This document shows positions 33,391 through 56,970 of a stretch of 64,000 bases of DNA, piece by piece; position 1 is the first letter of the stretch, and every line of letters begins with the position of its first letter. The notes beneath the pieces are model-generated. The model was not told the DNA's origin, made no database searches, and saw nothing but the letters and a program-made list of their open reading frames with translations. The translations under genes were made by a program, and so were the position numbers. The DNA is from Actinomycetes bacterium (GTDB lineage: Bacteria; Actinomycetota; Acidimicrobiia; Acidimicrobiales; RAAP-2), in the NCBI GenBank assembly GCA_021785695.1, contig JAJYEQ010000004.1, positions 11,840 to 75,839 of the forward strand, given 5' to 3'.

Positions 33391-33606
33391 GTGGTGTCCG
33401 AGGCGATCATCCCCACCGATGACTGGTCGATCTACGACCGCGTCGCCGATGCCGCCGCCTCGGGGGCGATGGTGTCGCTGATGGTTGGCGACGAGGTCAT
33501 CGAGCTGCCCACCGATCTGGTCGACGCCCTGCGCCAGAGCGCCGAGTTCCTGGCGCGCGACAAGGCCGTCGTGATCACGTCGCGTTCGCGACTGCGCTTC
33601 GCCTAA
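33391..33606 (+). CDS. small acidic hypothetical protein (71 aa)
   Basis: GTG start, and strong GC3 bias typical of local coding sequence despite AT-richer flanks. No family recognised. It lies just upstream of pilB on the same strand. Confidence 0.45.
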   Translation: MVSEAIIPTDDWSIYDRVADAAASGAMVSLMVGDEVIELPTDLVDALRQSAEFLARDKAVVITSRSRLRFA

Positions 33607-33753: not shown

Positions 33754-35610
33754 GTGGCGTTTAAGCGGCGAGACAAAGACGCTCCTCGAAAGGACCACAA
33801 GAAGGACGGGTCCCACAAGGGGCATGAGGCGCCGGCCCGCGCGTCGGGCGCGACCGCCGTGGGCCTCGTCGATCGGCAAGAAGACGAGTTCGCCGAGTTC
33901 GAGCTGGGGGGCATCAGCGCAGAGAACGCGCCCACCCCGGGCCGTCTGGGCGACACGCTGGTCAAGTCGGGAGCCATCACCACCGAGCAGCTGGCTCGGG
34001 CCCTCCACGAGCAGAAGCGCAGCGGCCAGCGCCTGGGCGAGATCCTGGTCGCTTCGGGCGCCATCGACGAGCGCTCCTTGACGACCGCCCTGTCGATCCT
34101 GCTGTCTTTGCCCGTCGTCAATCTCCACCAAGTGGATGTCGACGTGACGGTCCTCAAGATGCTCGAGGAGGAGTTCGCGCGCGAGTTCTTCGTCGTGCCA
34201 GTGCGGGACGACGCCGGAACCATCGTGGTGGCCTGCTCCGAGCCACGACCCGAGCTGACCGACGAGGTGGCGCGTCGCATTGGACGTCCCGTGCGCCTGG
34301 AAATCGCCTCGCTGTCGGACGTGCGGTGGGCCCTCGACTCCAACTACCGGGCCATCAGCGATGTGGGGTCCCTGGTCGAAGCCTTCAAGGCCGTCGAGGA
34401 GTCGCGGCGGCGCGGGCCCGACGTCGCGGTGCCCGAGATCGTGGCCGACGACGCGCCCATTGTCCAGGTGGTCGATCGGCTCATCACTCAGGCCATGCGC
34501 GACCGCGCCTCGGACGTCCACATCGAGCCCTCCAACGACGTGGTGCGCGTGCGCTTCCGCATCGACGGCGCACTCAGCCAGGTCCTCGAGCTGCCGGCCT
34601 CCATGGGGCCGGGACTGGTCAGCCGCATCAAGATCATGGCCGACATGAACATCGTCGAGCGCCGCCGTCCCCAGGACGGCCAACTCACCATGACGATCGA
34701 CGGCAAGGAGGTCGACGTCCGGGTCTCGACCGTGGCCACGATCATGGGCGAGAAGTGCGTGATGCGCATCTTGGACAAGACGCGCTCCCTGCTGCGCCTG
34801 GCCGACCTCGGGATGCCGACCGACACCCACCACGCCTACTCCAAGTTGGTGCGCGCCCCCTTCGGCATGGTGCTGTGCGCCGGGCCGACGGGGAGCGGCA
34901 AGACGACCACGCTGTACGCCACGGTGTCCGAGATCGGCAACGAGGCCATCAACGTCATGACCATCGAGGACCCCGTCGAGTACGTGTTCCCCATGATCAA
35001 CCAGATCCAGACCAACGACACCGCGGGCCTGACCTTTGCCACCGGCCTCAAGTCGATCCTGCGCCAGGACCCCGACGTGATCCTGGTCGGCGAGGTGCGT
35101 GACGTCGAGACGACGCGCGTGGCCGTCCAGTCCGCCCTGACCGGGCACTTCGTCATCTCGTCGATGCACGCGACCGACGCCGTGGCCGCCCTGCACCGCC
35201 TGCTCGACATGGGCATCGAGTCGTTCCTGGTGGCCTCGTCGGTGCTGGCCGTGGTCGGCCAGCGCCTGCTGCGCCGGATCTGCACCTCGTGCAAGACGCA
35301 GTACCGGCCGACCGACGAGGAGCTGCTCTTCTACGAGGAGAGCGGGGGCGAGCCCAAGGAGACCTTCTACCACGGCGCGGGGTGCAACTACTGCAGCCAC
35401 ACCGGCTACCAGGACCGCATCGGCATTTACGAGCTGCTCACCATGACACCCGAGATCCGGCGCCTGATCGTCGGCTGGGCGACCCAGGAGGAACTGCGGA
35501 CCCTCGCCGTCAAGCAGGGCATGCGCACGCTGCGCCAGGAGGCCCTCAACCTGGTGGCCCGGGACGTCACCACGATCAACGAGGTCATCCGGAGCGTGTA
35601 CACGCTATGA
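33754..35610 (+). CDS. pilB: type IV pilus assembly ATPase PilB (GspE family) with an N-terminal MshEN-type domain
   Basis: Walker A GPTGSGKTTTL, VILVGEVRD and a tetracysteine CTSC...CNYC. The N-terminal tandem RLG..LV..GAI motif is described in the findings. The GTG at 33754 follows GGAG. The track start at 33715 is possible. Confidence 0.92.
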   Translation: MAFKRRDKDAPRKDHKKDGSHKGHEAPARASGATAVGLVDRQEDEFAEFELGGISAENAPTPGRLGDTLVKSGAITTEQLARALHEQKRSGQRLGEILVASGAIDERSLTTALSILLSLPVVNLHQVDVDVTVLKMLEEEFAREFFVVPVRDDAGTIVVACSEPRPELTDEVARRIGRPVRLEIASLSDVRWALDSNYRAISDVGSLVEAFKAVEESRRRGPDVAVPEIVADDAPIVQVVDRLITQAMRDRASDVHIEPSNDVVRVRFRIDGALSQVLELPASMGPGLVSRIKIMADMNIVERRRPQDGQLTMTIDGKEVDVRVSTVATIMGEKCVMRILDKTRSLLRLADLGMPTDTHHAYSKLVRAPFGMVLCAGPTGSGKTTTLYATVSEIGNEAINVMTIEDPVEYVFPMINQIQTNDTAGLTFATGLKSILRQDPDVILVGEVRDVETTRVAVQSALTGHFVISSMHATDAVAALHRLLDMGIESFLVASSVLAVVGQRLLRRICTSCKTQYRPTDEELLFYEESGGEPKETFYHGAGCNYCSHTGYQDRIGIYELLTMTPEIRRLIVGWATQEELRTLAVKQGMRTLRQEALNLVARDVTTINEVIRSVYTL

Positions 35611-36986
35611 GTGCGGCCGAGGGCGACAAGTCGACGCGGGCCGACGCGAAGCGCGCGGCCAAGAAGGAGCACGAGGACGCCCGGGCTCGCCGGCGCGAGA
35701 ACGCGGTGGCCAAGAGCACCAGCAAGGATCGGCGGCGCACTCGCGGCAAGAAGCCCAAGAAGCAAAAGGATCTGCCGATAAAGCAGTTCAACTTCGTGGC
35801 CTTGGACGAGCAAGGGCAGTCGGTCAAGGGGGTCGAGAAGGCGATCTCGGCGGGGGCGGCCCACATGGCTCTCCTGCGCCGCGGCCTGCAGCCAGTCGAG
35901 GTGTCCGAGAAGCGCAGCATCCTCAAGTTCGAGATAACCAAGAAGATGGTCCCGCGCAAGGAGGTGATGAACTTCTCGCGTCAGCTCTCCGTCTTCATCC
36001 GTGCGGGAGTCCCCATCATGGAGTCGCTCGAGGTGATCCTCGAGGAGACGACGGGCAAGATAATGCGGATCGTGATCGCCGACATGATCGACTCGCTGCG
36101 CAATGGCGACACCTTCGCTGCTGCCGCGGCCGCTCATCCCGAGGCGTTTCCCAACTACTTCGTCGGGATCCTGGAGTCCGCCGAGTTGACGGGCAACCTG
36201 GACGTGGTCTTGAACCAGCTGGCCGACTACATGGACCGTGACCTGAAGGCGCGGGCCAAGATCACGTCGGCTCTGATCTATCCGGTGGTGGTCGCCGTGA
36301 TGTCGGTTGTGGTCGTGATCGTGTTGACCGTCTTCGTCCTCCCGCGCTTCGTGGTTTTCTTCAAGTCACTCGACGCCAAGCTCCCGCTGGTCACGCGGAT
36401 GCTGCTCAACTTCTCGGGCTATCTGACGCGGTGGTGGTTCCTCGTCGTGGGGGCGCTCGTTCTGCTCGTCGTCGGCTTCCTGACGATGCGCCGGACCCAG
36501 AACGGTCGAGCCATCCTGGACTCCTGGATTCTGCGCATCCCCGTCATCGGCGACATCACCCAGACGTCGATTCTCGAGCGCACCATGCGCATCCTCGCCT
36601 CGATGCTTCGAGCGGGTGTGGACATGCCTCGCTCGATGGCGGTGATGGCCGAGTCCGCTAACAACAGTGTGTATCGAACAGCCATCGAGCACATCCGCGA
36701 CGAGATGATGGAGGGCCAGGGTCTGGCGACACCGCTCGCGCGTACGGGGCTCTTCCCCGGAGCCGCGCGCCAGATGCTGCGGGTTGGCGAGGAGACCGGA
36801 ACGCTCGACACACAATTGGAAGTGGCCGCTGCCTACTATGGACGCGAACTCGAGACGAAGGTCGACCACGCGACGTCGCTCTTTGAGCCGGCCATCATTC
36901 TCGCAATGGGCGTCGTCGTAGGATTTGTTGCGATTGCGTTGATATCCGCAATGTATGGTATCTACAACCAGGTCCAGGTGCACTGA
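35607..36986 (+). CDS. pilC: type IV pilus platform protein PilC (GspF family)
   Basis: Two T2SSF-like repeats (FSRQLSVFIRAGVPI and RILASMLRAGVDM) and 3 TM segments. The ATG at 35607 overlaps the pilB TGA (ATGA). There is a K/R-rich N-terminal tail of about 60 aa. Confidence 0.9.
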   Translation: MSAAEGDKSTRADAKRAAKKEHEDARARRRENAVAKSTSKDRRRTRGKKPKKQKDLPIKQFNFVALDEQGQSVKGVEKAISAGAAHMALLRRGLQPVEVSEKRSILKFEITKKMVPRKEVMNFSRQLSVFIRAGVPIMESLEVILEETTGKIMRIVIADMIDSLRNGDTFAAAAAAHPEAFPNYFVGILESAELTGNLDVVLNQLADYMDRDLKARAKITSALIYPVVVAVMSVVVVIVLTVFVLPRFVVFFKSLDAKLPLVTRMLLNFSGYLTRWWFLVVGALVLLVVGFLTMRRTQNGRAILDSWILRIPVIGDITQTSILERTMRILASMLRAGVDMPRSMAVMAESANNSVYRTAIEHIRDEMMEGQGLATPLARTGLFPGAARQMLRVGEETGTLDTQLEVAAAYYGRELETKVDHATSLFEPAIILAMGVVVGFVAIALISAMYGIYNQVQVH

Positions 36987-37015
36987 AGGCTGTCGGCCGG
37001 GGCGGGGAGGTGTGC

Positions 37016-38482
37016 GTGAACGTTCGTCATCAACTCCCCCCGCGGGGGAGCATCGCAAAACCGGCGAAGCGGGAGTTAACCCGTCTCGTTCGTCTGCGGA
37101 GTGCCGGAGAGTCGGGATTCACCCTGATCGAGATGCTGGTGACCTTCCTCATCATCCCCGTCCTCATTGGTGCGGCGACGTTCTCGCTCATTGGGCTGAT
37201 GAAGGGCCACGCCACGGTGGCGAATCGCCTGACGTCGTCCGCGGACGCCCAAGTGGTCTCCTCGTCGTACTTCAACGATCTCCAGAGTGCGTCGCTGATC
37301 ACCCTGGACCCGTCCGCCGTCTCGCCCGCGGTGTGCCTCCCGAGCCTGCCGGGCGCCGACGAGTGGCTGCTAGGTCTCCAAATTCCAGCGTCACCGGGAC
37401 CGGCGACGCTGGACGTCTCCTACGGCCTGGTTCCCAGCTCCACCTTTGGCAACTTGTCCACGTGGGCGCTCGTGCGTTGGCAGTGCTCCATTGGCGACCA
37501 GGGCCAGGTCAACTACGACTCCATGGCTACCTTGGCCAGCCACGTGCCCAGTTCGAGCTTGAACGTCAGCATTTCAGGGGCCTCGTGCTCGCCTACGGCA
37601 TCGGGCTCGGAGTGCCTCACGAACCTCACGACGCCGACCCTGACTCAAGCGGCGAAGGGCGTGTGGATCTCGACGTACGGCATCCAGGCTGTAACGATCG
37701 ACGTCGTCGACACTGGGCTATCGGGGACCGGTGGCGGCTGGAGCTACAGCATTGGGGCGAGTCCTCGCAACTGGGTCCACGTGGTATGCGACCAGGGGAA
37801 CTGCAGCACCAGTGGCCAGCCGATTCAGAGCCCGGGCCTGGTCCTGGGTCTTGGTGGAGGATCGGGGAACACCACATTCAACGGCAACCCCTGCAATGTT
37901 TCTGCCGTTGCAGTGGGGCTCAATCGGTTGAAAATCTCCCAGCAAGGCAACTCGAATCCCTTCTCTGGTGTGACCAACGTCTACGGGACCGGCTACGGCA
38001 CCTCGACGACGGTCTACTTTGGTCCCCACAACAGCCTTCCACTGTCCATCAACTATGCGACGACATCCGATCCGCTGGCCAAGGACACTCTTTCCACGGC
38101 GGAGAGCCTGCTTGGATTCACCTCGATCAAGTACCTGGAGTCCTCCTGGCCCGCGACCTTCACTGCGGGCACGATGTACGTCATCGCATCAACGGCGCCG
38201 GCGCTGCAGACGATCCCCACGATCGACATGTCGAGCTCGGGTGGCTCCATCCTTCTGTGGGATGCCTTGCCATATAACACCTCACCGTCGCAGCTCGAAA
38301 TCAAAGGGAACACAACAGTCAATCTCGGACAGTACGGCATCCTGTATGCGCCAGCCACCACTCTGAGCGTGGCTGGAACAGCCAAGCTCACCGCGGAGAG
38401 TGTGATCGTGCAGAACCTGACCTGCAGTGGTGGAGGAACCGGCTCTAACTTGTCTCTCACCTCTCAGTACCCGAACTCCTAA
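37016..38482 (+). CDS. large pilin-like protein (prepilin-type N-terminal cleavage/methylation domain, about 488 aa), candidate minor pilin or tip adhesin
   Basis: Class III signal G|FTLIEMLV followed by a hydrophobic helix. The remainder is S/T/G/N-rich with 8 Cys. The GTG at 37016 is preceded by GGAGG (37006-37010). Locally lower GC. Confidence 0.8.
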   Translation: MNVRHQLPPRGSIAKPAKRELTRLVRLRSAGESGFTLIEMLVTFLIIPVLIGAATFSLIGLMKGHATVANRLTSSADAQVVSSSYFNDLQSASLITLDPSAVSPAVCLPSLPGADEWLLGLQIPASPGPATLDVSYGLVPSSTFGNLSTWALVRWQCSIGDQGQVNYDSMATLASHVPSSSLNVSISGASCSPTASGSECLTNLTTPTLTQAAKGVWISTYGIQAVTIDVVDTGLSGTGGGWSYSIGASPRNWVHVVCDQGNCSTSGQPIQSPGLVLGLGGGSGNTTFNGNPCNVSAVAVGLNRLKISQQGNSNPFSGVTNVYGTGYGTSTTVYFGPHNSLPLSINYATTSDPLAKDTLSTAESLLGFTSIKYLESSWPATFTAGTMYVIASTAPALQTIPTIDMSSSGGSILLWDALPYNTSPSQLEIKGNTTVNLGQYGILYAPATTLSVAGTAKLTAESVIVQNLTCSGGGTGSNLSLTSQYPNS

Positions 38483-38487
38483 GTCGT

Positions 38488-39102
38488 ATGTCCTCCTTGA
38501 CACCAAGCACCGTGGGGCTTCGAGCAGACGACGGCGCGCCTCGGAGGGGACGATCGGGTCGGCGTGTTGGTGAGCCCAGAAGATCGGACCGCGGTGACAC
38601 CCTGCTCGAGGTGCTGCTCGCCCTGCTGGTCATCTCCCTGACGTCAGTCGCGCTGATGTCGGGCTACGCCACGACGATCGCGGGATCGGCCACCCACCAG
38701 AGCCTCGCCGGACTCGACGTCGCTCTCCGCGACGCCGCCGAGCAGGTGACCTACCAGATCCAGTCGCAGCCGAGCCCGGACTACACCCCTTGCGCCACAG
38801 TTAGCGGTGCAGTCACCTCGGGCCAATCGGGCCAGACCAGCACGCTCAAGTATGGTCCGCACCTGTTGGATATGTCGGGTGTCGTACTGACAGGGGGGGA
38901 GTCGCTGTCGCTGAGTGCCCCCGAGTACTGGAATCTCCCGGCGAGCAACCCCACGTCCGGGACCTCCGGGACCTGGGTCAAGAACTGTCCGACCGACAAC
39001 CGACGCGGCGCGCAACTTCTGACCTTGAATGCCTTCGGACGTCACGGGGTGGCCGAAGCTGTGCAGATCGTCGTGATCGACCTTGCTGGTTCGGGTACCT
39101 AG
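38488..39102 (+). CDS. pseudopilin/minor pilin-like protein with an atypical class III signal (G|DTLLEVLLAL)
   Basis: A 36-aa Arg-rich leader, then G-DTLLE with Glu at +5 and a hydrophobic helix LLALLVISLTSVALM. 204 aa. Confidence 0.7.
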   Translation: MSSLTPSTVGLRADDGAPRRGRSGRRVGEPRRSDRGDTLLEVLLALLVISLTSVALMSGYATTIAGSATHQSLAGLDVALRDAAEQVTYQIQSQPSPDYTPCATVSGAVTSGQSGQTSTLKYGPHLLDMSGVVLTGGESLSLSAPEYWNLPASNPTSGTSGTWVKNCPTDNRRGAQLLTLNAFGRHGVAEAVQIVVIDLAGSGT

Positions 39103-39112
39103 GGGTGTCGTG

Positions 39113-39751
39113 ATGAGTGCCCTCTCGACGCGGCGTGCACCCGACGGCAACGTGGTGATAGGTGAGCGCACGGTGCGGATCGGCGTCGAGCGACGCGGCG
39201 CGGGGACGCGAGGCGATGCTGGCAGTTCGCTCATCTTCGCCCTGGCGTTCCTTTTGCTCGGCTCGTTGATTGTCACGACGCTGGCGGGATGGGCGAGCAG
39301 CGATCTGGGCAGCAGCGCCCACTTCCAGGTGGGGCGCAGCCTGACCTACAGCGCCGACGGGGCGGTCAGCGTAGCGATCAACGAGACGCGCTACTGGTAC
39401 CCCTCGAATGTAGGGACCAACGGCGCGTGGTCGGGCCCGTGTCCCAATGTTTCGGCTGTCGACTTTGGACAGACGACGATGCCCCCGGATGCACCGGCCT
39501 ACGAGCCGCCCATCTCCATCGACACCTGGTGCACGTTGCAGGTCGGTGGTGTGTTCAGCCGCCTGGTGACCGTTCAGGCCTACGACGTCAGCTCCGGTGG
39601 ATCGATACTGCCCAATGGGCCGACAAGCTCCTCGGTACCACTGGCCTCGGCGACGGTCGGGTATATCGACAGCCTGTCAAACCCTCCCGGAAGTTGCAGC
39701 ACTTCCACGTGTGATTTTTCGATGACGATCTTGACGTGGAGTGTGAAGTAG
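39113..39751 (+). CDS. membrane-anchored pilus-associated protein (PilX/GspK-like minor pilin lacking Glu+5)
   Basis: A basic N-terminus, then G|SSLIFALAFLLLGSLIVTTLAGW and a globular part with 4 Cys. The ATG at 39113 follows AGGGGTG. Assigned by position and N-terminal architecture only. Confidence 0.55.
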   Translation: MSALSTRRAPDGNVVIGERTVRIGVERRGAGTRGDAGSSLIFALAFLLLGSLIVTTLAGWASSDLGSSAHFQVGRSLTYSADGAVSVAINETRYWYPSNVGTNGAWSGPCPNVSAVDFGQTTMPPDAPAYEPPISIDTWCTLQVGGVFSRLVTVQAYDVSSGGSILPNGPTSSSVPLASATVGYIDSLSNPPGSCSTSTCDFSMTILTWSVK

Positions 39752-39859
39752 GGAGATACGACGTCTCGTACCCGCACCCGCCGGCACTACGCCACGGGCC
39801 CGCGACCGGGGATTGGGGCGCCCGCGGTGCAGCGTTGGGGATTCTCAGGGCTCTTCTAA

Positions 39860-39884
39860 ATTGTGCTGCGATTGTGTTGTGATT
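39860..39884 (+). promoter_or_regulatory. ATTGTG/TTGTG direct repeats upstream of pilA (candidate regulator or promoter element)
   Basis: ATTGTG at 39860 and 39871 (11-bp phasing) and TTGTGA at 39877. They lie in the AT-richest part of the 230-bp intergenic region preceding the major pilin gene. Confidence 0.25.
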
Positions 39885-39981
39885 CTTGCCAAACGCTCGG
39901 GCGCGTGATAGACAGGACCACGGAATTCGTGCGTGGCGAATATCCGTTTTGTTGGCTCCGGCTACTGAAAGGCAGGACGTA

Positions 39982-40545
39982 ATGATTTCTACCCTCCGGC
40001 GATTGCAGGAGCGCCGATCAAGCGGCGAGGGTGAGGGTGGATTCACCCTTATCGAGTTGCTGATCGTCATCGTGATCCTGGGTATTCTGGCCGCCATTGT
40101 GGTGTTTGCATTGGGCGGTGTGACCGGGAAGAGCTCGGTCGCGGCATGCCAGACCGACGCAAGCACCGTGAACACCGCGGTCGCCGCTCTCGAGGCCTCC
40201 AACCCACAATTGGGTGCTACTGGGGTAGATTCCCTAGCCGCCTGGAGCTCGGACATCATGGGGTCGAACAACGTGGACGCGGGCTTCACGATTAACGGTG
40301 GTCCCTTCCTACAGACCTGGCCGACCGGGAACGCAGCGACGTATTTGGTCGGGATTGCCTCCGATTCCACGGGGGCGGTGCTGGCACCGGGGGGTGCGAC
40401 AATCACAACGATCTCCGGCGGCAGCGCCCAGACGCCCCAAGCGGGCGACGTTGTGGTCGCCAAGACTACCTCCAGTCCGACGTGGTACGACGCGACGCTG
40501 AATCCCTCCGGAACCTATGGGGCGTGCTTTACGGCACTTGGGTAG
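39982..40545 (+). CDS. pilA: major type IV pilin (PilA-like)
   Basis: A 20-aa leader ending GEGEGG, then FTLIELLIVIVILGILAAIVVFAL (the canonical N-methyl-Phe / Glu+5 helix). 187 aa with two Cys (a D-region-type disulfide is possible). It has its own long upstream intergenic region. Confidence 0.9.
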   Translation: MISTLRRLQERRSSGEGEGGFTLIELLIVIVILGILAAIVVFALGGVTGKSSVAACQTDASTVNTAVAALEASNPQLGATGVDSLAAWSSDIMGSNNVDAGFTINGGPFLQTWPTGNAATYLVGIASDSTGAVLAPGGATITTISGGSAQTPQAGDVVVAKTTSSPTWYDATLNPSGTYGACFTALG

Positions 40546-40599
40546 CTGGGGACAAGACTCGTCGGATCTCGCTCAGAACGTGTGAGGGATGCGACGCGC

Positions 40600-40671
40600 A
40601 AGGACCGTTTCGACTGTCCTTCGGGGAAGAGGTGGGCGTGCTGCTCGACGAGCGGCGCTCACCTCTTCCCC
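40600..40671 (+). terminator. two consecutive stem-loops downstream of pilA (candidate intrinsic terminator or attenuator without a U-tract)
   Basis: AAGGAC(N10)GTCCTT at 40600-40621. GGGGAAGAGGTG(N25)CACCTCTTCCCC at 40623-40671 is a perfect 12-bp stem. They sit between pilA and pilT. Confidence 0.45.
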
Positions 40672-40700
40672 GTTGGCAGAGCGTGACGACGAGAGGTCAC

Positions 40701-41804
40701 ATGATGGCACCTGACGTAGATGTGAGTGGAGTTGACCAGTGGATCCAGATCCTCTGGGAGAACCAGGGCTCGGACCTGCTGCTCGCCGGGGGATCGGCGC
40801 CGCGGATCCGCGTCAACGGGCGCCTGATACCCGTGGAGGGTGCTCCGGTTCTCGCTGCCGGCGACGTCAGCAAACTGGCCTTCCCCCTCCTCACCAAGGG
40901 GCAGCAGAAGACATTTGACGAGATGATGGACGTGGACTTCGCGTTCTCGTGGCGCGACCTAGCGCGCGTGCGCGGCAGCATCTTCACCCAGCGCGGGCAG
41001 ACCGCCATATCCCTGCGCATCATCCCGACGAAGATTCCGAGCTTCGAGCAGTTGGGGCTCCCCTGGGTGGCCGAGTGGGTCTCCACCCAGCCCCGTGGAT
41101 TCGTTCTGGTGACCGGGCCGACGGGCTCGGGCAAGTCGACCACGTTGGCCTCGATCATCGATCGAATTAACGACACGCGCGCGACCCACATCCTCACCAT
41201 CGAGGACCCGGTCGAGTACGTGCACCACCACAAGGTCTCCGCGGTGAGCCAGCGCGAGATCGGACTGGACAGCCCGTCCTTCGAGCGGGCTCTGCGCTCC
41301 GCCCTGCGCGAGGACCCCGACATCTTGCTGCTCGGCGAGATGCGCGACATCGACTCGATCCAGATGGCCCTCACCATGGCAGAGACCGGCCACCTGGTCT
41401 TCGCGACGCTGCACACCAACGACGCACCCCAGGCGATCGATCGCATCATCGACGTGTTCCCCGCTTGGCGCCAGGAGCAGACGCGCGTGCAGCTGGCCGC
41501 CTCGCTGACCGCGATCATCGCCCAGCGCCTGGTGCCCAAGAACGACGGCGGCATGGTGGCCGCCTTCGAGGTGCTGGTGGCCACCAGTCCGGTGCGCAAC
41601 CTCATCCGGGAGGGACGCTCCAACCAGCTCATCAATGTGATGTTCACCAACGCCAAGGAAGGCATGCAGGTGATGGAGGCCGACCTGGCCAAGCTGGTGG
41701 TGGACGGGACGATATCGTACGAGAGTGCGGTCGCCACCAGCGCTCACCAGAAGGAGCTCACCCGCTCCCTGGAGTTCTTGGGGTTCAAGATCCCCAAGGA
41801 GTGA
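40701..41804 (+). CDS. pilT: type IV pilus retraction ATPase PilT
   Basis: 367 aa from the ATG at 40701 (RBS GAGAGG). Walker A GPTGSGKSTTL, ILLLGEMRD, GHLVFATLHTN and a PilT-type N-terminus (LLLAGGSAPRIRVNG). No MshEN or Zn-finger, consistent with PilT rather than PilB. Confidence 0.9.
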   Translation: MMAPDVDVSGVDQWIQILWENQGSDLLLAGGSAPRIRVNGRLIPVEGAPVLAAGDVSKLAFPLLTKGQQKTFDEMMDVDFAFSWRDLARVRGSIFTQRGQTAISLRIIPTKIPSFEQLGLPWVAEWVSTQPRGFVLVTGPTGSGKSTTLASIIDRINDTRATHILTIEDPVEYVHHHKVSAVSQREIGLDSPSFERALRSALREDPDILLLGEMRDIDSIQMALTMAETGHLVFATLHTNDAPQAIDRIIDVFPAWRQEQTRVQLAASLTAIIAQRLVPKNDGGMVAAFEVLVATSPVRNLIREGRSNQLINVMFTNAKEGMQVMEADLAKLVVDGTISYESAVATSAHQKELTRSLEFLGFKIPKE

Positions 41805-41810
41805 GGCGCC

Positions 41811-42515
41811 GTGACCCTGCATCGGGGTCCCGACCTGCCCTACGTCCTGGTGGCCGGCGTGGTGCCGGTGGCGCGTGGCTGGCTCGTGGCGTCGGCCAAG
41901 ATGCACGCGGCCACCTTCTCCCCGGAGTCCCCGAAGGTCTACGAGTCCATCGTCGAGGTGCTGAACGAGCGGCCCTCCTTCGCCACCATCGTGATCTACG
42001 CCCCGATCGGGTACCGCGATGACCTGTCATCGCCGCGACGTACGTGCGACGTCGAGGCCCGGACGCTGCTCGGGAACCGGGCACTGACCCTGACGGCAGC
42101 GCCCACGCGTTGGCACTTGCAGCCGTCCCAGTGGCACGCCGACGGGCTCGACGCGGTCACCATCGTGCGCCTCAATCACTATCGCGAGCTGTTCGTCGAG
42201 CTGCTGCCGTTTCGCCAGCGCACTGTGTACTCGGGGCATCCCGAGCTGAGCTTCTACCAACTGAACGGTGACGTCCCCCTGCGCTGGTCCAAGCGCCGTG
42301 AGGAGGGACGCGAGGAGCGCCGGGCGTTGCTGACGCGCCGCGTACCGGGCATCACCGCGGTGATCGACGCCGCGACCGCAGTGCCGGAAAAGCACCTCTA
42401 CGACGCAGCAGCGCTGCTGTGGACGGCCCGCCGCGTCAACGGGCGCGCGGCGACCCGGCTGCCGGCCGAGGGCGAGTGGGATAGCGACGGGCTGCGCACC
42501 GAGTTCGTGTACTGA
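41811..42515 (+). CDS. DUF429-like protein (predicted RNase H-fold nuclease family), possibly degenerate
   Basis: 234 aa. The N-terminal YVLVAGVVPVARGWLVAS resembles the VLG(V/I)DG.R.GWV start I recall for DUF429, but without the Asp. It begins 7 nt after the pilT stop. Confidence 0.5.
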   Translation: MTLHRGPDLPYVLVAGVVPVARGWLVASAKMHAATFSPESPKVYESIVEVLNERPSFATIVIYAPIGYRDDLSSPRRTCDVEARTLLGNRALTLTAAPTRWHLQPSQWHADGLDAVTIVRLNHYRELFVELLPFRQRTVYSGHPELSFYQLNGDVPLRWSKRREEGREERRALLTRRVPGITAVIDAATAVPEKHLYDAAALLWTARRVNGRAATRLPAEGEWDSDGLRTEFVY

Positions 42516-42516
42516 G

Positions 42517-43305
42517 CTATCCCAGCAGGGTGCGCAAGGCCGGCCAGGGGCTGAGGATCTGGGGGGTGAACAGGATCGCGACACCGGCCCCGATCGCCAG
42601 GAACACGCCGTAGGGGATGGGCTGGCGTCGCTGGAGACGGTGCGCGGCGAGCAGCGAGACGCCCACGATCGACCCCACCAGGTTGGCCACGAAGAAGCCG
42701 ACCACCACCGCGCTGACACTCAGCCAGCCGAGGGCGAATCCGAGCAGCGGTGCCAGCCGTACGTCTCCTGCACCCAGGGCCCGCGGGCTCACGACGTGGA
42801 TGGTGCCAAAGAGCGTGAGCCACGCGAGCGCGCAGAGAGCTCCGACCACGCTGTGGTGCCACTGATCGAGCAGGGCGGAGGATCCGAGCAGCAGGGCAAT
42901 CACGAGCACGCTGGCTGGATACACGATGCGCGAGGGCAGCCGCAAGTGCTCGACGTCGATGATGGCGAGTGCCAGGAGACTGGCCGCGCACACCAGGAAC
43001 GCCGCCAGCTGCGGGTGCGGGCCGATGCGCCACGCGACCAGCCCGAAGCTCAGCGCCGTTCCTGACTCGACGAGCGGGTAGCGCACCGAGATGGGGGCTC
43101 GGCACGAGCGGCACCGTCCACGCAGCACCAACCACGAGATGACGGGGACGTTGTCGCGGACCGCGATCGGCGTGTGACACGCGGGGCACGCCGATCGCGG
43201 CGCGACCACGGAGAGCCCTTGGGGGACCCGGTAGATGACGACGTTGAGGAACGATCCAACGATGAGGCCGGCGATCGCGCTCCAGATCACCAGCGCCGCG
43301 GTCAC
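42517..43305 (-). CDS. pilD: prepilin peptidase / N-methyltransferase PilD (peptidase A24)
   Basis: N-terminal GSFLNVVIYR, CPAC...CRSC zinc-knuckle, a polytopic membrane domain with GAGDVRL and a second Asp region. 262 aa. Confidence 0.9.
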   Translation of the reverse strand: MTAALVIWSAIAGLIVGSFLNVVIYRVPQGLSVVAPRSACPACHTPIAVRDNVPVISWLVLRGRCRSCRAPISVRYPLVESGTALSFGLVAWRIGPHPQLAAFLVCAASLLALAIIDVEHLRLPSRIVYPASVLVIALLLGSSALLDQWHHSVVGALCALAWLTLFGTIHVVSPRALGAGDVRLAPLLGFALGWLSVSAVVVGFFVANLVGSIVGVSLLAAHRLQRRQPIPYGVFLAIGAGVAILFTPQILSPWPALRTLLG

Positions 43306-43345
43306 GCCTGCACACTACTGAGTGCGTCTCGTGGTGGTGCGATGG

Positions 43346-43357
43346 CGTCACGTGACG
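43346..43357. promoter_or_regulatory. perfect 12-bp palindrome CGTCACGTGACG in the divergent pilD / E1-like gene intergenic region
   Basis: Read directly in the sequence. An extra CGTCAC half-site lies at 43430-43435. Confidence 0.25.
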
Positions 43358-43461
43358 GGCCCCGACCATGCACCGCTCCCTCCAGCACGATCGGTAGCCT
43401 GAATGTGGCGCCAAGCCGTGCGCCCGGTCCGTCACGAGCGAGGTGTTCGGAAAGGAGATCA

Positions 43462-46344
43462 GTGGCGCTTCGCTATCGATACGGAGCGAGTTTCATCGAC
43501 GAGGCCTCGGGGGTGCGCTTCGAGGGACATCACCCGCTCGAACGACCGGACCTGTGGCGCCGCTACCTCGACGATGCCGAGGGCAAGTACCGCAGCTACG
43601 GTTTCGAGAGCACCTTGCGGCGCCGCGATCTCGAAGAGGGTCGTGGCGTCCCTCTGTTCTTTGTGGGCTTCGCTCCCGACGGTGAGCCGGTCGCGGGCCT
43701 GCGATTTCACGGGCCACTCGAGAACCGCTGGGGTGCCGCGCTCATGGAGGAGTTGGCCTCTCTCCCCGAGATCGACGAGATCGGTGACTTGATCGACCGT
43801 GAGGCCCGCCTGGGCGTCATCGAGGCCAAGGGCGGATGGGCCAGGGGCGCCTCAGTCCTCGGCGTGCGGATGGTCGCGACGATCTCGCGGATGATGACGC
43901 ACGCGGCGACGTGGCTCGGCGCGGAGCGCACCATCGCCGCCGTCTCCGACCAGCTGATTCCCGTCGGCAAGGTGGCCGGGGGCGAGGTCCTGAGCCGCAA
44001 CTGGGTGCCCTTCCCCGACGAGCGCTATCGCACCTACGCCGTCACCTGGCAGCGCGGACGCACCTACGACCTGGCCGACGACGAGAACCGTCGGGCTCTG
44101 CGGCGCGAGGCCGAGCAGCTAGCTCGAGGTCCGCGCCAGACCGGTCCCGCATCACTGGACGCGGAGTCTCCGCGCACCCAGTCATTTCGCCCCCTGGTGC
44201 TCGACGTCGCCACGCGCAGCGACCGCGAGGTCCTGCGCATCTTGCGCGAGGATCCGGCCCTGCAGGCGATTGACCGTCTGGCCGAGCAGCAGGCCCAGGT
44301 GGCCGAGCTCAAGCCCACCCCCTCAGACAAGGAGCTCGACGAGCCGGCGCGCTGGGTCTACTACCCGTGGCGGCGCGCGGTCGTGCGCCTGCTCGGTCCT
44401 CGCGCGTTCAGCCGGGTGCGCCTGGACCGGAATCGGCCCAAGCTCACCGCCGAGGAGCAGCATCACCTGCGGGGCCTGCGCGTCGGCATCGTCGGCGCGA
44501 GCGCCGGGCACTCGGTCGCCCACGTCATCGCCCTGGAGGGACTGGCCGGCGAGCTGCGTCTCGCCGACCTCGACACGGTGGCCCTGACCAACCTCAACCG
44601 CTTGCCGGTCAGCGTGCTGGACCTCGGGATCAACAAGGCGATCGTCGCGGCTCGCCGGATCGGCGAGATCGACCCCTACGTGTCCCTAATGGTGCTGAGC
44701 GAGGGCCTGACGCACGAGAACCTCGACCAGTTCCTCGACGGTCTCGACGTGGTCATCGAGGAGTGCGACTCGCTGGACATGAAGTACCTGGTGCGCGAGG
44801 CGGCCCGGGCCCGCCGGATCCCGGTCCTCATGGAGACCAGCGACCGCGGGGTGCTCGATGTGGAGCGCTTCGACCTCGAGCCCGACCGGCCGCTCTTCCA
44901 CGGGCTCCTCGGCGACATGACCGCCGAGCGCCTGGCCAGCCTGACGCTGTTCGAGAAGGGGCCCTACCTGCTGCGTCTCCTGGGCACGGCCGAGGTGTCG
45001 GCGCGCGGCGCCGTGACCTTCTTCGAGCTGGGCGCCACGATCACCGGATGGCCCCAGCTGGCCAGCGAGGTGACGCTGGGTGCCGCCTCGGTGGCCACCG
45101 CTCTGCGCCACCTCGCCCTGGGCGCCGATCTGCCCTCGGGCCGGGTCCGCATCGACCTGGACGAGGCCCTCGGCGGGATCGCACCCGTCGACTTGGAGAT
45201 CGACTCCGACATTGACCTCGACGCCGCGCAACCGGAGGACCCCGTGCCCGTCGACGCCGACGACATCACGCTGATCGTCGATGCCGCTCGACGCGCGCCG
45301 TCGGGGGGAAACGTCCAGCCCTGGCGCTTCGAGGCCGACGACGACGAGGTGCGCTTCTTCGTGGTCGCCGACCACTCCGCCGCGATGGACGTCGCGCACC
45401 GGGGCACCTACGTGGCCCTGGGCGCGGCGGTGCTGAACGCGCGTACCGCTGCTGCGGCGACCGAGCGCCTGGGTGAGGTTCAGCTCTTCCCCCAGGGGGT
45501 CGCCAGCTCGCACGTGGCCACGCTGCACCTGGGTCGCGGCGCGGACTCCCAGCTCGCCGCGCTCTATCCCGCCGTGCCGCGCCGGATGACGAACCGCCAG
45601 GCCGGGGACCCCGAGGCCACGTTGAGCAGTGAGGATGTGGAGTCTCTCCAGCGGGCCGCCAGCGCCGAGGGCGCGCGGCTGCGCCTGCTGCGCTCACCCA
45701 CCGAGCTGGGCGCCGCGGGTGACATCCTGGGTCGCTGCGACCGCCTGCGCTTCCTCATCCCGTCCGTGCACGCCCAGATGCTCGGTGAGATCCGCCTGCC
45801 GGGACGTGACGCGCTCGACGAGGGCCTCGATGTGCGGACCCTGGAGATGGACCCGACGAGCGTGGCCGCCCTGGGGCTGCTCGGGCGCCCCGAGGTCATG
45901 GCGCACCTGGCCGAGTGGCGGGCGGGTCGGATGCTCGGCCTGCGCACCCAACTCTTGGTCTCGACGTCGTCGGCCCTGGCGGCGATCACGGTGCCACGCG
46001 TCGAGCCCCTGTGGTACATGCGCGCGGGGGCGGCGACCGAGCGCCTCTGGCTGACGGCGACGGTGGCTGGCCTGGCCGTGCAGCCGGTGGTCCCCGTCTT
46101 CCTCTACGCGACCAACGACTTCGAGCGACGCGAGCTCGGCGGCGAGCGCTATCTCGACGAGATGTACGATCTGGCCACACGCTTCAACGATCTGTTCGAT
46201 CTGGATCCCGGAGAGACGATCGCGATGGTGTTGCGGGTGTCGGTCGCGACGCCCGCCAGCGCGCACAGCATTCGTCGACGGCTCGACGACGTCTGGGTGC
46301 GCACAACAGCGCACGACAATGACGAGTCCGTTGTCGAAATGTAG
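43462..46344 (+). CDS. 960-aa multidomain protein: unknown N-terminal domain + ThiF/E1-like adenylyltransferase + tandem nitroreductase-like domain (Rv1355c/MoeY-like core)
   Basis: The GTG at 43462 follows AAAGGAGA. ARWVYYPWRRAVVRLLGPRAFSRVRLDRNR, then the Rossmann motif VGIVGASAGHSV and LADLD.V..TNLNR (E1-like). Later RRAPSGGNVQPWRF (nitroreductase/Acg-like). The first 200 aa or so are not assignable. Confidence 0.8.
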   Translation: MALRYRYGASFIDEASGVRFEGHHPLERPDLWRRYLDDAEGKYRSYGFESTLRRRDLEEGRGVPLFFVGFAPDGEPVAGLRFHGPLENRWGAALMEELASLPEIDEIGDLIDREARLGVIEAKGGWARGASVLGVRMVATISRMMTHAATWLGAERTIAAVSDQLIPVGKVAGGEVLSRNWVPFPDERYRTYAVTWQRGRTYDLADDENRRALRREAEQLARGPRQTGPASLDAESPRTQSFRPLVLDVATRSDREVLRILREDPALQAIDRLAEQQAQVAELKPTPSDKELDEPARWVYYPWRRAVVRLLGPRAFSRVRLDRNRPKLTAEEQHHLRGLRVGIVGASAGHSVAHVIALEGLAGELRLADLDTVALTNLNRLPVSVLDLGINKAIVAARRIGEIDPYVSLMVLSEGLTHENLDQFLDGLDVVIEECDSLDMKYLVREAARARRIPVLMETSDRGVLDVERFDLEPDRPLFHGLLGDMTAERLASLTLFEKGPYLLRLLGTAEVSARGAVTFFELGATITGWPQLASEVTLGAASVATALRHLALGADLPSGRVRIDLDEALGGIAPVDLEIDSDIDLDAAQPEDPVPVDADDITLIVDAARRAPSGGNVQPWRFEADDDEVRFFVVADHSAAMDVAHRGTYVALGAAVLNARTAAAATERLGEVQLFPQGVASSHVATLHLGRGADSQLAALYPAVPRRMTNRQAGDPEATLSSEDVESLQRAASAEGARLRLLRSPTELGAAGDILGRCDRLRFLIPSVHAQMLGEIRLPGRDALDEGLDVRTLEMDPTSVAALGLLGRPEVMAHLAEWRAGRMLGLRTQLLVSTSSALAAITVPRVEPLWYMRAGAATERLWLTATVAGLAVQPVVPVFLYATNDFERRELGGERYLDEMYDLATRFNDLFDLDPGETIAMVLRVSVATPASAHSIRRRLDDVWVRTTAHDNDESVVEM

Positions 46345-53223: not shown

Positions 53224-53309
53224 ATGAGCGCGCGCGTGTCGGTTTGCCGGGGCGGCGTCGGGACCGCTAGGTTGGGGCGCCCGTCAGCGAGGACGGGTGG
53301 GGCGAAGGG

Positions 53310-56857: not shown

Positions 56858-56970
56858 ATCCGCCCACCTTCGCGCAGCCGGCACACCCCGGGCGCAACCT
56901 GACCACACTAGCAGCGGGAGCTTTGGGCCCAGGGGACGCCCGGGCGCCGTCGGCGACTCGGCCGGCGCTC

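What the first reader, a model, noticed from the sequence alone, without database searches (positions are those of the whole stretch)
33754..43305. Compact type IV pilus locus with a retraction ATPase in a high-GC, apparently monoderm genome, with no pilMNOPQ in the window
- **Gene set:** nine adjacent genes encode PilB, PilC, three pilin-like proteins (488, 204 and 212 aa), a canonical major pilin, PilT, a DUF429-like protein and a convergent PilD.
- **Operon structure:** starts and stops are tightly coupled (ATGA between pilB and pilC; gaps of 5 to 30 nt elsewhere).
- **What is missing:** no alignment-complex (PilM/N/O) or secretin gene is present in or next to the cluster.
- **Why it is unusual:** actinobacteria are best known for Tad/Flp pili. 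A PilB+PilT retractile type IVa-like machine with this minimal gene set is not a well-described actinobacterial system.
- **Composition:** the pilin genes are visibly less GC-rich than the rest of the window.
Basis: partly seen in the sequence, partly recalled or inferred. Interest (0 to 1): 0.65.

Follow-up and report, generated by a model that had tools for sequence, protein, structure and literature searches.

The report
Acidimicrobial type IVa pilus gene cluster

Summary
Window 33754-43305 encodes PilB, PilC, three minor pilins, the major pilin PilA, PilT, a DUF429 protein and a convergent PilD, all with intact catalytic motifs. The organism is an uncultured Acidimicrobiales bacterium (Actinomycetota).

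The cluster is a lineage trait, not an island. In 80 related genomes pilA-pilT-DUF429-pilD keeps the same order.

No PilM/N/O or secretin gene lies in the 64 kb window, in about 10 kb beyond each end, or within 10 kb of pilT in the relatives. The rest of the genome could not be searched, so a truly PilMNO-free machine remains unproven.

- PilB carries an MshEN c-di-GMP receptor domain with both 24-residue motifs, and five c-di-GMP turnover genes follow the cluster.
- DUF429 follows pilT in 80 of 80 loci and in a distant rearranged lineage. This RuvC-like subfamily has lost two canonical acidic residues.
- A strong hairpin separates pilA from pilT.

Type IVa pili with PilT are already described in Actinobacteria (Actinoplanes, Rubrobacter, Bifidobacterium), so that part of the claim is overstated. 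I rate it a new variant of a known kind, of moderate interest.

The parts
33391..33606 (+). Small conserved ORF (71 aa) upstream of pilB, function unknown
   Evidence: Called as a gene on identical public contigs. tblastn finds it upstream of pilB in L001, L005, L006, L008, L010, L011 and L082, with the motif LARDKAVVITPRSRLRF. No Pfam or NCBIfam hit.
33754..35610 (+). pilB: extension ATPase with an N-terminal MshEN c-di-GMP receptor domain
   Evidence: T2SSE 408 bits, MshEN 58 bits, NCBIfam c-di-GMP motif NF053729 67 bits against a cut-off of 38. Twin motif RLGDTLVKSGAITTEQLARALHEQ-KRSGQ-RLGEILVASGAIDERSLTTAL, Walker A GPTGSGKT, CTSC and CNYC. Best solved relative is Geobacter PilB at 461 bits, against GspE at 361.
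35607..36986 (+). pilC: platform protein, with a basic N-terminal extension of about 55 aa
   Evidence: Two T2SSF domains, 180 bits. GspF/PilC NCBIfam hits. ATGA overlap with pilB.
37016..38482 (+). Minor pilin 1 (488 aa), canonical G|FTLIE prepilin signal
   Evidence: N_methyl 20.6 bits. The family N-termini G|FTL(I/V)E are conserved in 27 loci. The AF2 model is poor (pLDDT 56) but shows a long N-terminal helix (residues 37-90) followed by beta structure.
38488..39102 (+). Minor pilin 2 (204 aa), G|DTLLE signal; relatives carry giant adhesin-like versions
   Evidence: G|DTL(I/V)E is conserved in the family. Relatives of 600-2500 aa carry N_methyl plus He_PIG Ig-like repeats. The automated gene call (163 aa) cuts off the prepilin motif.
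39113..39751 (+). Minor pilin 3 (212 aa), PilX/GspK-like, lacks Glu5
   Evidence: Weak PilX_N hit at 17 bits. Family N-termini G|(A/S)xLILAL without E5 in 34 loci.
39752..39981 (+). 230-nt intergenic region, presumed pilA promoter and 5' UTR
   Evidence: It is the largest gap in the cluster and is richer in A+T. No sigma-70 consensus match and no WhiG-type match.
39982..40545 (+). pilA: major pilin, 20-aa leader MISTLRRLQERRSSGEGEGG|FTLIELLIVIV
   Evidence: N_methyl 30.6 bits, GspG/PilA NCBIfam hits. Translation. Conserved upstream of pilT in 63 of 63 loci.
40622..40672 (+). Strong stem-loop between pilA and pilT, probably a terminator or attenuator
   Evidence: 17-nt arms, 94% complementary. 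The intergenic fold has z = -4.9. A stem of median 18 bp sits at the same place in 73 related loci, with different sequences.
40704..41804 (+). pilT: retraction ATPase
   Evidence: TIGR01420 432 bits, above the cut-off of 319. Motifs GPTGSGKS, PVRNLIRE, HLVFATLH. Best solved relatives are Geobacter and Aquifex PilT at about 330 bits.
41811..42515 (+). DUF429: RuvC-like (RNase H-fold) protein, probably catalytically degenerate, coupled to pilT
   Evidence: PF04250 77 bits. AF2 pLDDT 91. Best PDB fold is RuvC, probability 0.97 but low TM-score. Strand-1 and strand-4 Asp of canonical DUF429 are replaced. It follows pilT directly in 80 of 80 loci and in a distant lineage.
42517..43305 (-). pilD: bifunctional prepilin peptidase/N-methyltransferase, convergent
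   Evidence: A24_N_bact 122 bits, Peptidase_A24 44.5 bits. Motifs CPAC, CRSC, IDVEHLRLP, GAGDVR. Convergent downstream of pilT in 67 of 68 loci.
43342..46344 (+). Rv1355c-family ThiF-nitroreductase fusion; a conserved neighbour, with no evidence of a pilus role
   Evidence: NF005901 868 bits against a cut-off of 476. Present downstream in 40 of 66 loci.
46434..49528 (+). GAF-GGDEF-EAL protein and a GGDEF diguanylate cyclase (c-di-GMP turnover)
   Evidence: Pfam hits. Intact GGDEF with RxxD sites. GAF-GGDEF-EAL is syntenic in 39 of 65 loci.
49525..51654 (+). Two unknown proteins translationally coupled to the GGDEF gene: a 195-aa soluble protein and a 513-aa polytopic membrane protein
   Evidence: No Pfam or NCBIfam hit. 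Homologues of the membrane protein sit between DUF429 and pilD in 15 of 68 relatives.
51700..57034 (.). Two PAS-GAF-HD-GYP proteins (+) and a PAS-GGDEF-EAL protein (-): further c-di-GMP turnover genes
   Evidence: Pfam HD_5, GAF, PAS, GGDEF and EAL hits. HD...GYP, GGDEF and EALMR motifs are present.

Best explanation
The region is the chromosomal, vertically inherited type IVa pilus (T4aP) cluster of an uncultured Acidimicrobiales bacterium.

Shown by sequence:
- PilD has both catalytic Asp motifs and the Zn-Cys methyltransferase motifs.
- Four proteins carry class III (prepilin) signals: PilA and minor pilins 1 and 2 with Glu5, and minor pilin 3 without Glu5, as in GspK/PilX.
- PilB, PilC and PilT are full-length with intact motifs.
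- PilB starts with an MshEN domain that carries both 24-residue c-di-GMP-binding motifs.

Inferred mechanism:
- PilD cleaves and methylates the pilins.
- The three minor pilins form a priming or tip complex. In relatives, minor pilin 2 carries long Ig-like adhesin modules.
- PilB, activated by c-di-GMP made and degraded by the adjacent GGDEF/EAL/HD-GYP sensor enzymes, turns PilC to polymerise PilA through the cell wall.
- PilT depolymerises the filament, giving adhesion, surface motility and possibly DNA uptake.
- pilA is expressed from its own promoter and is largely insulated from pilT-DUF429 by a strong hairpin.
- DUF429, a RuvC-fold protein that has lost two canonical acidic residues, is a conserved non-nucleolytic partner of PilT. 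Its role is unknown.

Whether PilM/N/O act here from another locus is undecided.
For: - Family hits and motifs.
- Nearest solved structures are T4aP PilB and PilT of Geobacter, ahead of T2SS GspE.
- Prepilin N-termini are conserved within each pilin family.
- MshEN twin motif in the window and in most orthologues.
- c-di-GMP enzymes downstream.
- Synteny in 80 Acidimicrobiia genomes: pilA 63/63, DUF429 80/80, pilD 67/68, GAF-GGDEF-EAL 39/65.
- Upstream HDAC-GNAT and downstream Rv1355c flanks are shared with relatives.
- Hairpin after pilA.
- DUF429 fold and loss of canonical residues.
- The pilT-DUF429 pair is kept after locus rearrangement in a lineage with only 55% PilT identity.
- Precedent for c-di-GMP-linked T4P clusters in Actinobacteria: PMC8325347.
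Against: - There is no experimental evidence of any kind; every relative is a metagenome-assembled genome.
- PilM/N/O, which Pelicic (PMC6916266) describes as specific to and essential for T4aP in studied monoderms, are not in the locus. Either the machine is incomplete here or it works differently.
- c-di-GMP binding by PilB is inferred from the motif only.
- The c-di-GMP genes are absent from the 10 kb downstream of pilT in about 40% of related loci, so the linkage is not obligatory.
- Inactivity of DUF429 is inferred from two substitutions. Other conserved acidic residues remain (D80, E145, D198, D224).
- The model of minor pilin 1 was too poor to confirm a pilin fold beyond the N-terminal helix.
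Confidence: 0.8

Rival explanations
1. It is an ordinary type IVa pilus whose PilM/N/O genes lie elsewhere in the genome, as pilMNOPQ does in many diderms. The 'minimal gene set' would then be an artefact of looking at one window.
For: - Only about 84 kb of the genome could be inspected.
- KEGG pilM and pilO hits are reported for free-living members of another Acidimicrobiia order (PMC12008989).
- PilMNO are essential in every monoderm T4aP studied (PMC6916266).
Against: - In all described monoderm T4aP loci (Clostridia, S. sanguinis, Saccharibacteria, Bifidobacterium) pilMNO sit inside the pil cluster (PMC6916266, PMC11623550, PMC13091076).
- Here none lies within 10 kb of pilT in 80 related loci, or in the distant L094 locus.
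- The KEGG hits in PMC12008989 are automatic and come from a different order.
Confidence: 0.5
2. It is a truly PilMNO-independent type IVa machine. The cytoplasmic and membrane scaffold is dispensable, or is replaced by lineage-specific parts such as the PilT-coupled DUF429 protein or the N-terminal extensions of PilB and PilC.
For: - PilMNO are absent locally across 80 loci and one distant lineage.
- DUF429 is strictly coupled to pilT (80/80) and has lost canonical catalytic residues, as expected of a protein recruited for a structural role.
- Com and Tad systems show that type IV filaments can assemble without PilMNO (PMC6916266).
Against: - The whole genome was not searched.
- DUF429 is a single RNase H-like domain of 234 aa with only weak fold similarity to anything but RuvC.
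- There is no evidence of interaction with the pilus motor.
- DUF429 is coupled to the retraction ATPase, not to pilB or pilC.
Confidence: 0.3
3. It is mainly a DNA-uptake (competence) pilus. PilT-driven retraction would bring DNA to the membrane and the nuclease-like DUF429 would process it.
For: - Retractile T4aP mediate DNA uptake in many bacteria (PMC6370729).
- DUF429 belongs to the RuvC/YqgF clade of RNase H-like nucleases (PMC3985635).
Against: - No comEA, comEC or dprA lies in the window or in the flanks of relatives.
- DUF429 has no signal peptide and lacks the strand-1 and strand-4 Asp of canonical family members.
- The giant Ig-repeat minor pilins in relatives point to adhesion.
Confidence: 0.15
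4. It is a recently acquired genomic island, as suggested by its lower G+C content.
For: GC is 0.63 over the pilin genes against 0.72-0.74 in the flanks. Pilin GC3 is 0.74-0.79 against 0.88-0.97.
Against: - The same locus lies between the same flanking genes (HDAC-GNAT upstream, Rv1355c and GGDEF genes downstream) in related genomes with PilT identity of 72-93%.
- No integrase, tRNA or repeat boundary was seen among the annotated genes.
- PilB, PilT, DUF429 and PilD have GC3 of 0.88-0.93.
- The dip is confined to the fast-evolving pilin genes (ORF3 69-71% identical where PilT is 91-92%) and owes much to low GC1, that is, to amino-acid composition.
Confidence: 0.04
5. It is a type II secretion-like or Com-like pseudopilus rather than a surface pilus.
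For: PilB scores equally on the GspE (537 bits) and PilB (535 bits) NCBIfam models, both below their cut-offs.
Against: - A bona fide PilT is present, above the family cut-off.
- PilB has the long N-terminal MshEN region that ComGA lacks, and ComGA scores only 261 bits.
- The best solved relatives are T4aP PilB.
- There is no secretin and no GspL/M/C.
- PilA is a 167-aa mature pilin.
Confidence: 0.03

Closest known systems
Monoderm type IVa pili of Firmicutes (Clostridium perfringens/difficile, Streptococcus sanguinis) as reviewed in PMC6916266
   Same: PilB, PilC, PilD and PilT, a major pilin with a long leader and G|FTLIE, three minor pilins, no secretin, and all genes clustered.
   Different: Those loci contain pilM, pilN and pilO, which are essential there; this one does not. 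They have no DUF429 gene after pilT. S. sanguinis has no MshEN-type PilB plus neighbouring c-di-GMP enzyme block.
Bifidobacterium T4aP locus (PMC13091076, 2026)
   Same: An actinobacterial host. pilT, pilB, pilC and pilD, a major pilin and three minor pilins (pilV/W/X), with retraction implied. The pilin genes also show atypical composition.
   Different: The Bifidobacterium locus includes pilM, pilN and pilO and is patchily distributed (13 species). The Acidimicrobiia locus lacks them locally, is lineage-wide, and carries DUF429 and a c-di-GMP module.
Rubrobacter type IV pilus cluster under RsiG-(c-di-GMP)-WhiG control (PMC8325347); Actinoplanes zoospore type IV pili (cited there and in PMC12871210)
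   Same: An actinobacterial T4P cluster that is physically linked to DGC/PDE genes and functionally tied to c-di-GMP.
   Different: Control in Rubrobacter works through WhiG promoters (TAAA-N15-GCCGATAA). No such promoter lies in the intergenic parts of this locus or upstream of pilA in 65 relatives. Here the predicted c-di-GMP input is the MshEN domain of PilB. The gene content of the Rubrobacter and Actinoplanes clusters could not be read: the Actinoplanes paper is not held.
MshE / MshEN-type extension ATPases (Vibrio MSHA pilus; cited in PMC8325347 and PMC12871210)
   Same: An N-terminal MshEN domain with tandem 24-residue c-di-GMP-binding motifs on the extension ATPase.
   Different: The rest of the system is not an MSH pilus. 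There are no Msh-specific components, a PilD is present in the locus, and the host is a monoderm.
Canonical DUF429 / RNase H-like clade D (RuvC, YqgF); the DUF429 domain of M. smegmatis MSMEG_5849 with RNase HII activity (PMC3985635, PMC4429107)
   Same: A Pfam PF04250 match and a RuvC-like predicted fold. The HPELSF Glu and the C-terminal helix Asp are conserved.
   Different: The pilT-linked subfamily replaces the strand-1 Asp (GVD to GV[T/V/K/E]) and the strand-4 Asp (VDxPIG to [N/Y/H]xPIG). It is always encoded directly after pilT.

Membership tests
Type IVa pilus (T4aP) | PilB-type extension ATPase | tested here: met
   T2SSE 408 bits. TIGR02538 535 bits, which is below that model's equivalog cut-off of 676. 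Best PDB relative is Geobacter PilB at 461 bits.
Type IVa pilus (T4aP) | PilT retraction ATPase with the AIRNLIRE-type motif | tested here: met
   TIGR01420 432 bits, above the cut-off of 319. PVRNLIRE and Walker A are present.
Type IVa pilus (T4aP) | Single PilC platform protein with two T2SSF domains | tested here: met
   PF00482 matched in two stretches, 180 bits.
Type IVa pilus (T4aP) | Major pilin with a class III signal (Gly-1, Phe+1, Glu+5) and a PilD peptidase | tested here: met
   PilA leader ...GEGG|FTLIE. PilD has A24_N_bact plus Peptidase_A24 and both Asp motifs.
Type IVa pilus (T4aP) | PilM-PilN-PilO assembly subcomplex (stated to be T4aP-specific in PMC6916266) | tested here: inconclusive
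   No Pfam hit in any gene of the 64 kb window, in about 10 kb beyond each end, within 10 kb of pilT in 80 relatives or in L094. The rest of the genome could not be searched.
Type IVa pilus (T4aP) | Secretin PilQ (diderms only) | tested here: not met
   No Secretin hit in the window. This is expected for a monoderm and is not disqualifying.
Tad / type IVc pilus | TadA/CpaF ATPase, two platform paralogues TadB and TadC, and a short Flp pilin | tested here: not met
   The TadA-family model scores only 30 bits on PilB. There is one PilC with two T2SSF domains. PilA is 187 aa with G|FTLIE, not an Flp pilin.
Com (ComG) competence pseudopilus | ComGA/ComGB/ComGC-GG set without a retraction ATPase | tested here: not met
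   ComGA 261 bits (cut-off 300), ComGB 153 bits (cut-off 240), ComGC 22 bits (cut-off 75). PilT is present.
MshEN c-di-GMP receptor domain | Tandem 24-residue motifs RLGxx(L/V/I)(L/V/I)xxG(L/V/I)(L/V/I)xxxxLxxxLxxQ separated by about 5 residues (consensus recalled from memory) | tested here: met
   PF05157 58 bits. NF053729 67 bits, above the cut-off of 38. Both motifs are present with a 5-residue spacer. Binding itself was not tested.
DUF429 (PF04250) RNase H-like nuclease | Pfam match and RNase H-like fold | tested here: met
   77 bits, above the cut-off of 23. AF2 pLDDT 91. RuvC is the best fold match, probability 0.97, but with TM-scores of only 0.34/0.46.
DUF429 (PF04250) RNase H-like nuclease | Conserved acidic active-site residues in strands 1 and 4 (PMC3985635) | tested here: not met
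   Canonical members have AGVDG...GW and AVDxPIGL. The window protein and its subfamily have AGVVP...GW and VIYAPIGY, or N/H variants.

The most novel reading that the evidence does not exclude
Acidimicrobiia, and at least one more distant high-GC lineage, build a retractile type IVa pilus without any PilM/N/O subcomplex. In this reading a catalytically dead RuvC-fold protein (the DUF429 subfamily), always co-encoded with PilT, is a new accessory subunit of the monoderm pilus motor, and extension is gated by c-di-GMP through MshEN-PilB.
Probability: 0.25. Interest if true: 0.7.

Novelty: new variant of a known kind. Interest (0 to 1): 0.5.

Why it matters
- **Role of PilM/N/O.** The role of PilM/N/O in type IVa pilus assembly is an open question, raised explicitly for monoderms in PMC6916266. 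A natural, widespread T4aP lineage lacking them would be a simple comparative system for working out what these proteins do.
- **DUF429.** The invariant pilT-DUF429 pairing gives a testable first functional context to a divergent branch of a domain of unknown function, and a possible new pilus accessory factor.
- **Ecology.** Acidimicrobiia are abundant, mostly uncultured soil, peat and water bacteria. A c-di-GMP-gated adhesive and retractile pilus, with hypervariable and sometimes giant adhesin-pilins, would be a main determinant of their surface lifestyle.
- **If pilMNO turn up elsewhere.** The locus is then simply a new, uncharacterised member of the monoderm T4aP family.

Tried and rejected
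- **WhiG/FliA-type promoters** (TAAA-N14-17-GCCGATAA), as found in Rubrobacter. There is none in the intergenic parts of the locus; the only perfect -10 box lies inside pilC. None was found upstream of pilA in 65 relatives.
- **Sigma-70 consensus scan.** No hits.
- **Rfam**, including c-di-GMP riboswitches. Nothing at gathering score in the window locus or in four relatives. One sub-threshold Actino-pnp hit antisense in pilT is taken as chance.
- **Structure of minor pilin 1.** The 13-sequence alignment gave pLDDT 56, and Foldseek gave no match with E below 0.09. Nothing beyond the N-terminal helix is usable.
- **Solved structures related to DUF429 by sequence.** None.
- **tblastn of DUF429 against plasmids.** No match.
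- **Metagenome scan with a 12-sequence DUF429 alignment.** A single distant member was used instead.
- **GC3 dip of pilin genes across relatives.** My GC3-based gene caller biases this comparison, so I do not rely on it.
- **Actinoplanes pilus paper (PMC6597397).** Not held.
- **Horizontal transfer as the cause of the GC dip.** Rejected on synteny.

Full report
**1. The observation**

A frame-specific GC analysis and ORF listing give nine genes between 33754 and 43305. Their identities come from profile searches.
- PilB: T2SSE 408 bits, plus an MshEN domain.
- PilC: two T2SSF domains.
- ORF3: 488 aa.
- ORF4: 204 aa.
- ORF5: 212 aa.
- PilA: N_methyl 30.6 bits.
- PilT: TIGR01420 432 bits, above the curated cut-off of 319.
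- DUF429: 77 bits.
- PilD: on the opposite strand, with A24_N_bact and Peptidase_A24.

Independent gene calls on public contigs that carry identical proteins give the same sizes. The exception is ORF4, whose automated call (163 aa) removes its prepilin motif.

Catalytic and structural motifs are intact.
- PilB: Walker A and two CxxC pairs.
- PilT: Walker A, PVRNLIRE and HLVFATLH.
- PilD: two CxxC pairs, IDVEHLRLP and GAGDVR.

pilB and pilC overlap by ATGA. The other junctions are 23-29, 5, 10 and 6 nt, and 1 nt to the convergent pilD.

GC falls to 0.63 over the pilin genes, against 0.72-0.74 in the flanks.

**2. The organism and the locus in other genomes**

PilT has thousands of close relatives. 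The named ones are Acidimicrobiales MAGs. A scan of one genome per species returned 80 loci. Almost all are labelled Acidimicrobiales, Acidimicrobiaceae, Actinomycetes or Actinomycetota MAGs, with PilT identity of 71-93%. Two carry other labels (Acidobacteria, Saccharibacteria) that I take to be misbinned.

tblastn of the window proteins against these loci gives the following counts.

| Feature | Loci with it / loci with enough sequence |
|---|---|
| pilA upstream of pilT | 63 / 63 |
| DUF429 directly after pilT | 80 / 80 |
| pilD convergent, downstream of pilT | 67 / 68 |
| Rv1355c-family gene | 40 / 66 |
| GAF-GGDEF-EAL gene | 39 / 65 |

The closest relatives also share the upstream HDAC and GNAT genes. 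The cluster is therefore an inherited trait of the lineage, not an island.

The stretch between pilC and pilA varies from about 2.5 to 9 kb. This is because the ORF4 family ranges from 199 aa to about 2500 aa. The long forms carry an N-terminal prepilin motif followed by He_PIG Ig-like repeats.

The GC dip coincides with these fast-evolving pilin genes. ORF3 is 69-71% identical in genomes where PilT is 91-92% identical. The dip also owes much to first-position GC, that is, to amino-acid composition.

**3. The pilins**

N-termini are conserved within each family.
- PilA and ORF3 have the canonical G|FTL(I/V)E.
- ORF4 has G|DTL(I/V)E.
- ORF5 has G|(A/S)xLILAL with no Glu5, and a weak PilX_N hit.

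Lack of Glu5 is what is known for GspK/PilX-type tip pilins (from memory). I read the three as a minor-pilin priming or tip set, with ORF4 as a variable adhesin carrier. This is an inference.

An AlphaFold model of ORF3 was poor (pLDDT 56). It showed only the expected long N-terminal helix followed by beta structure, and Foldseek found nothing.

**4. PilM/N/O and the secretin**

Every confident ORF of the 64 kb window was scanned against Pfam. None hits PilM, PilN, PilO, PilP or a secretin.

Exact-protein look-ups extended the view by about 9.3 kb upstream (nucleoside catabolism genes) and about 10 kb downstream. Nothing relevant appeared.

De novo clustering of ORFs from all related loci gave no PilM/N/O-like family within 10 kb of pilT.

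I could not search the remainder of any genome. This matters for two reasons. Many bacteria keep pilMNO apart from pilBCD and pilT. A survey of another Acidimicrobiia order lists KEGG pilM and pilO hits (PMC12008989).

Against that, every described monoderm T4aP locus keeps pilMNO inside the cluster: Firmicutes, Saccharibacteria and Bifidobacterium (PMC6916266, PMC11623550, PMC13091076). The question stays open. I put roughly even odds on pilMNO being elsewhere.

**5. c-di-GMP**

PilB residues 64-118 of the 618-aa protein contain two 24-residue motifs separated by five residues: RLGDTLVKSGAITTEQLARALHEQ, KRSGQ, RLGEILVASGAIDERSLTTAL. They hit the NCBIfam c-di-GMP-binding motif model above its cut-off. 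The motifs are kept in most orthologues.

After pilD and an Rv1355c-family gene, the following genes come in order.
- A GAF-GGDEF-EAL protein.
- A GGDEF cyclase.
- Two unknown proteins that are translationally coupled to the cyclase gene.
- Two PAS-GAF-HD-GYP proteins.
- A PAS-GGDEF-EAL protein.

The GGDEF, HD...GYP and (in the PAS protein) EAL motifs are present; a canonical EAL motif was not found in the GAF-GGDEF-EAL protein.

The likely logic is that sensory cyclases and phosphodiesterases set c-di-GMP, which gates pilus extension through PilB. This is known in kind for MshE-type ATPases. It also echoes the Rubrobacter pilus cluster with its embedded DGC/PDE gene (PMC8325347). WhiG-type promoters, which control that cluster, are absent here and upstream of pilA in 65 relatives.

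**6. DUF429**

The protein models confidently (pLDDT 91). Its best structural match is RuvC, with probability 0.97 but a low TM-score. This agrees with the published placement of DUF429 in the RuvC/YqgF clade of RNase H-like nucleases, which has active-site residues in strands 1 and 4 (PMC3985635).

A full HMMER search found 4491 relatives. Aligning near and far representatives shows the difference between the two groups.

| Position | Canonical DUF429 | pilT-linked subfamily |
|---|---|---|
| Strand 1 | AGVDGCxxGW | AGV(T/V/K/E)P...GW |
| Strand 4 | AVDxPIGL | (N/Y/H)(A/V)PIG |
| C-terminal helix | DDxxDA | Only the last Asp of the helix motif is kept |

I infer a non-nucleolytic role.

A metagenome scan seeded with a distant subfamily member recovered loci with PilT only 55% identical and DUF429 only 43% identical to the window. 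In these loci pilA, the minor pilins, pilC and pilB lie on the opposite strand, yet pilT is still followed directly by DUF429. The 12.7 kb locus L094 again has no PilM/N/O.

A gene pair that survives rearrangement argues for functional coupling. I found no paper that links DUF429 to pili.

**7. Expression signals**

A 17-nt-arm stem-loop at 40622-40672 lies between pilA and pilT (z = -4.9). A stem of median 18 bp occupies the same position in 73 related loci, with different sequences.

This fits strong, separately terminated pilA expression, with pilT-DUF429 read through or separately promoted.

**8. Comparison and verdict**

PilB and PilT are closest to solved T4aP ATPases of Geobacter, ahead of T2SS GspE, and far from the Tad and Com models. 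On every testable feature except PilMNO, the system is a monoderm type IVa pilus.

Three things are not described, as far as I could find:
- the PilMNO-less locus architecture, conserved across a whole class;
- the obligatory PilT-DUF429 pair;
- the combination of these with MshEN-PilB and a block of c-di-GMP enzymes.

I therefore call it a new variant of a known kind, of moderate interest (0.5). The interest would rise to about 0.7 if genome-wide searches confirm that PilM/N/O are absent.

Noticed in passing
window 33391-33606 (+): A conserved 71-aa ORF lies just upstream of pilB, with the motif LARDKAVVITPRSRLRF. It has no family hit. It is present in the closest relatives, twice in L082.
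   Followed up: partly
window 50113-51654 (+); related loci such as L002 11894-13651 (-): A 513-aa polytopic membrane protein without any family hit is translationally coupled to a GGDEF gene here. In 15 of 68 relatives a homologue sits between DUF429 and pilD. It could be a pilin-modifying (GT-C-like) enzyme, but this was not tested.
   Followed up: partly
related loci L012-L045, about 35-42 nt upstream of the pilA ATG: The motif (G)TTCCGAGTGTCGG is conserved in the pilA 5' leader of 33 of 65 relatives, often about 35 nt downstream of a TATAAT-like box. It is not recognisable in the window. No Rfam family matches.
   Followed up: partly
L018, L023, L033 (contigs CAVRWO010000013, 14 and 05): One MAG (MFD05512.bin.1.178) carries three separate pilA-pilT-DUF429-pilD loci. 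This means either paralogous pilus systems or mixed strains in the bin.
   Followed up: no
window 38488-39102; L085 9976-10467: Automated gene calling starts ORF4 at an internal GTG (163 aa). This removes the G|DTLLE prepilin signal, so public annotation would not recognise it as a pilin.
   Followed up: yes
window 35607-35780: PilC begins with a lysine/arginine-rich, probably disordered extension of about 55 residues that more distant orthologues (408 aa) lack. PilB has a low-complexity N-terminal region of about 60 residues before MshEN.
   Followed up: no
window 43342-46344 (+): An Rv1355c-family ThiF-nitroreductase fusion (868 bits) follows pilD in 40 of 66 related loci. Its function is unknown, and it is not evidently related to pili.
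   Followed up: partly
L020, L045, L054, L077 and others, between pilC and pilA: Giant pilin-like proteins of up to about 2500 aa, with a prepilin N-terminus and many Ig-like (He_PIG/PKD) repeats, replace the 204-aa ORF4 of the window.
   Followed up: partly
window 41150-41211 (-): A sub-threshold Rfam hit to Actino-pnp RNA (27.5 bits against a gathering score of 47.7, E 0.022) lies antisense inside pilT. It is probably chance.
   Followed up: no
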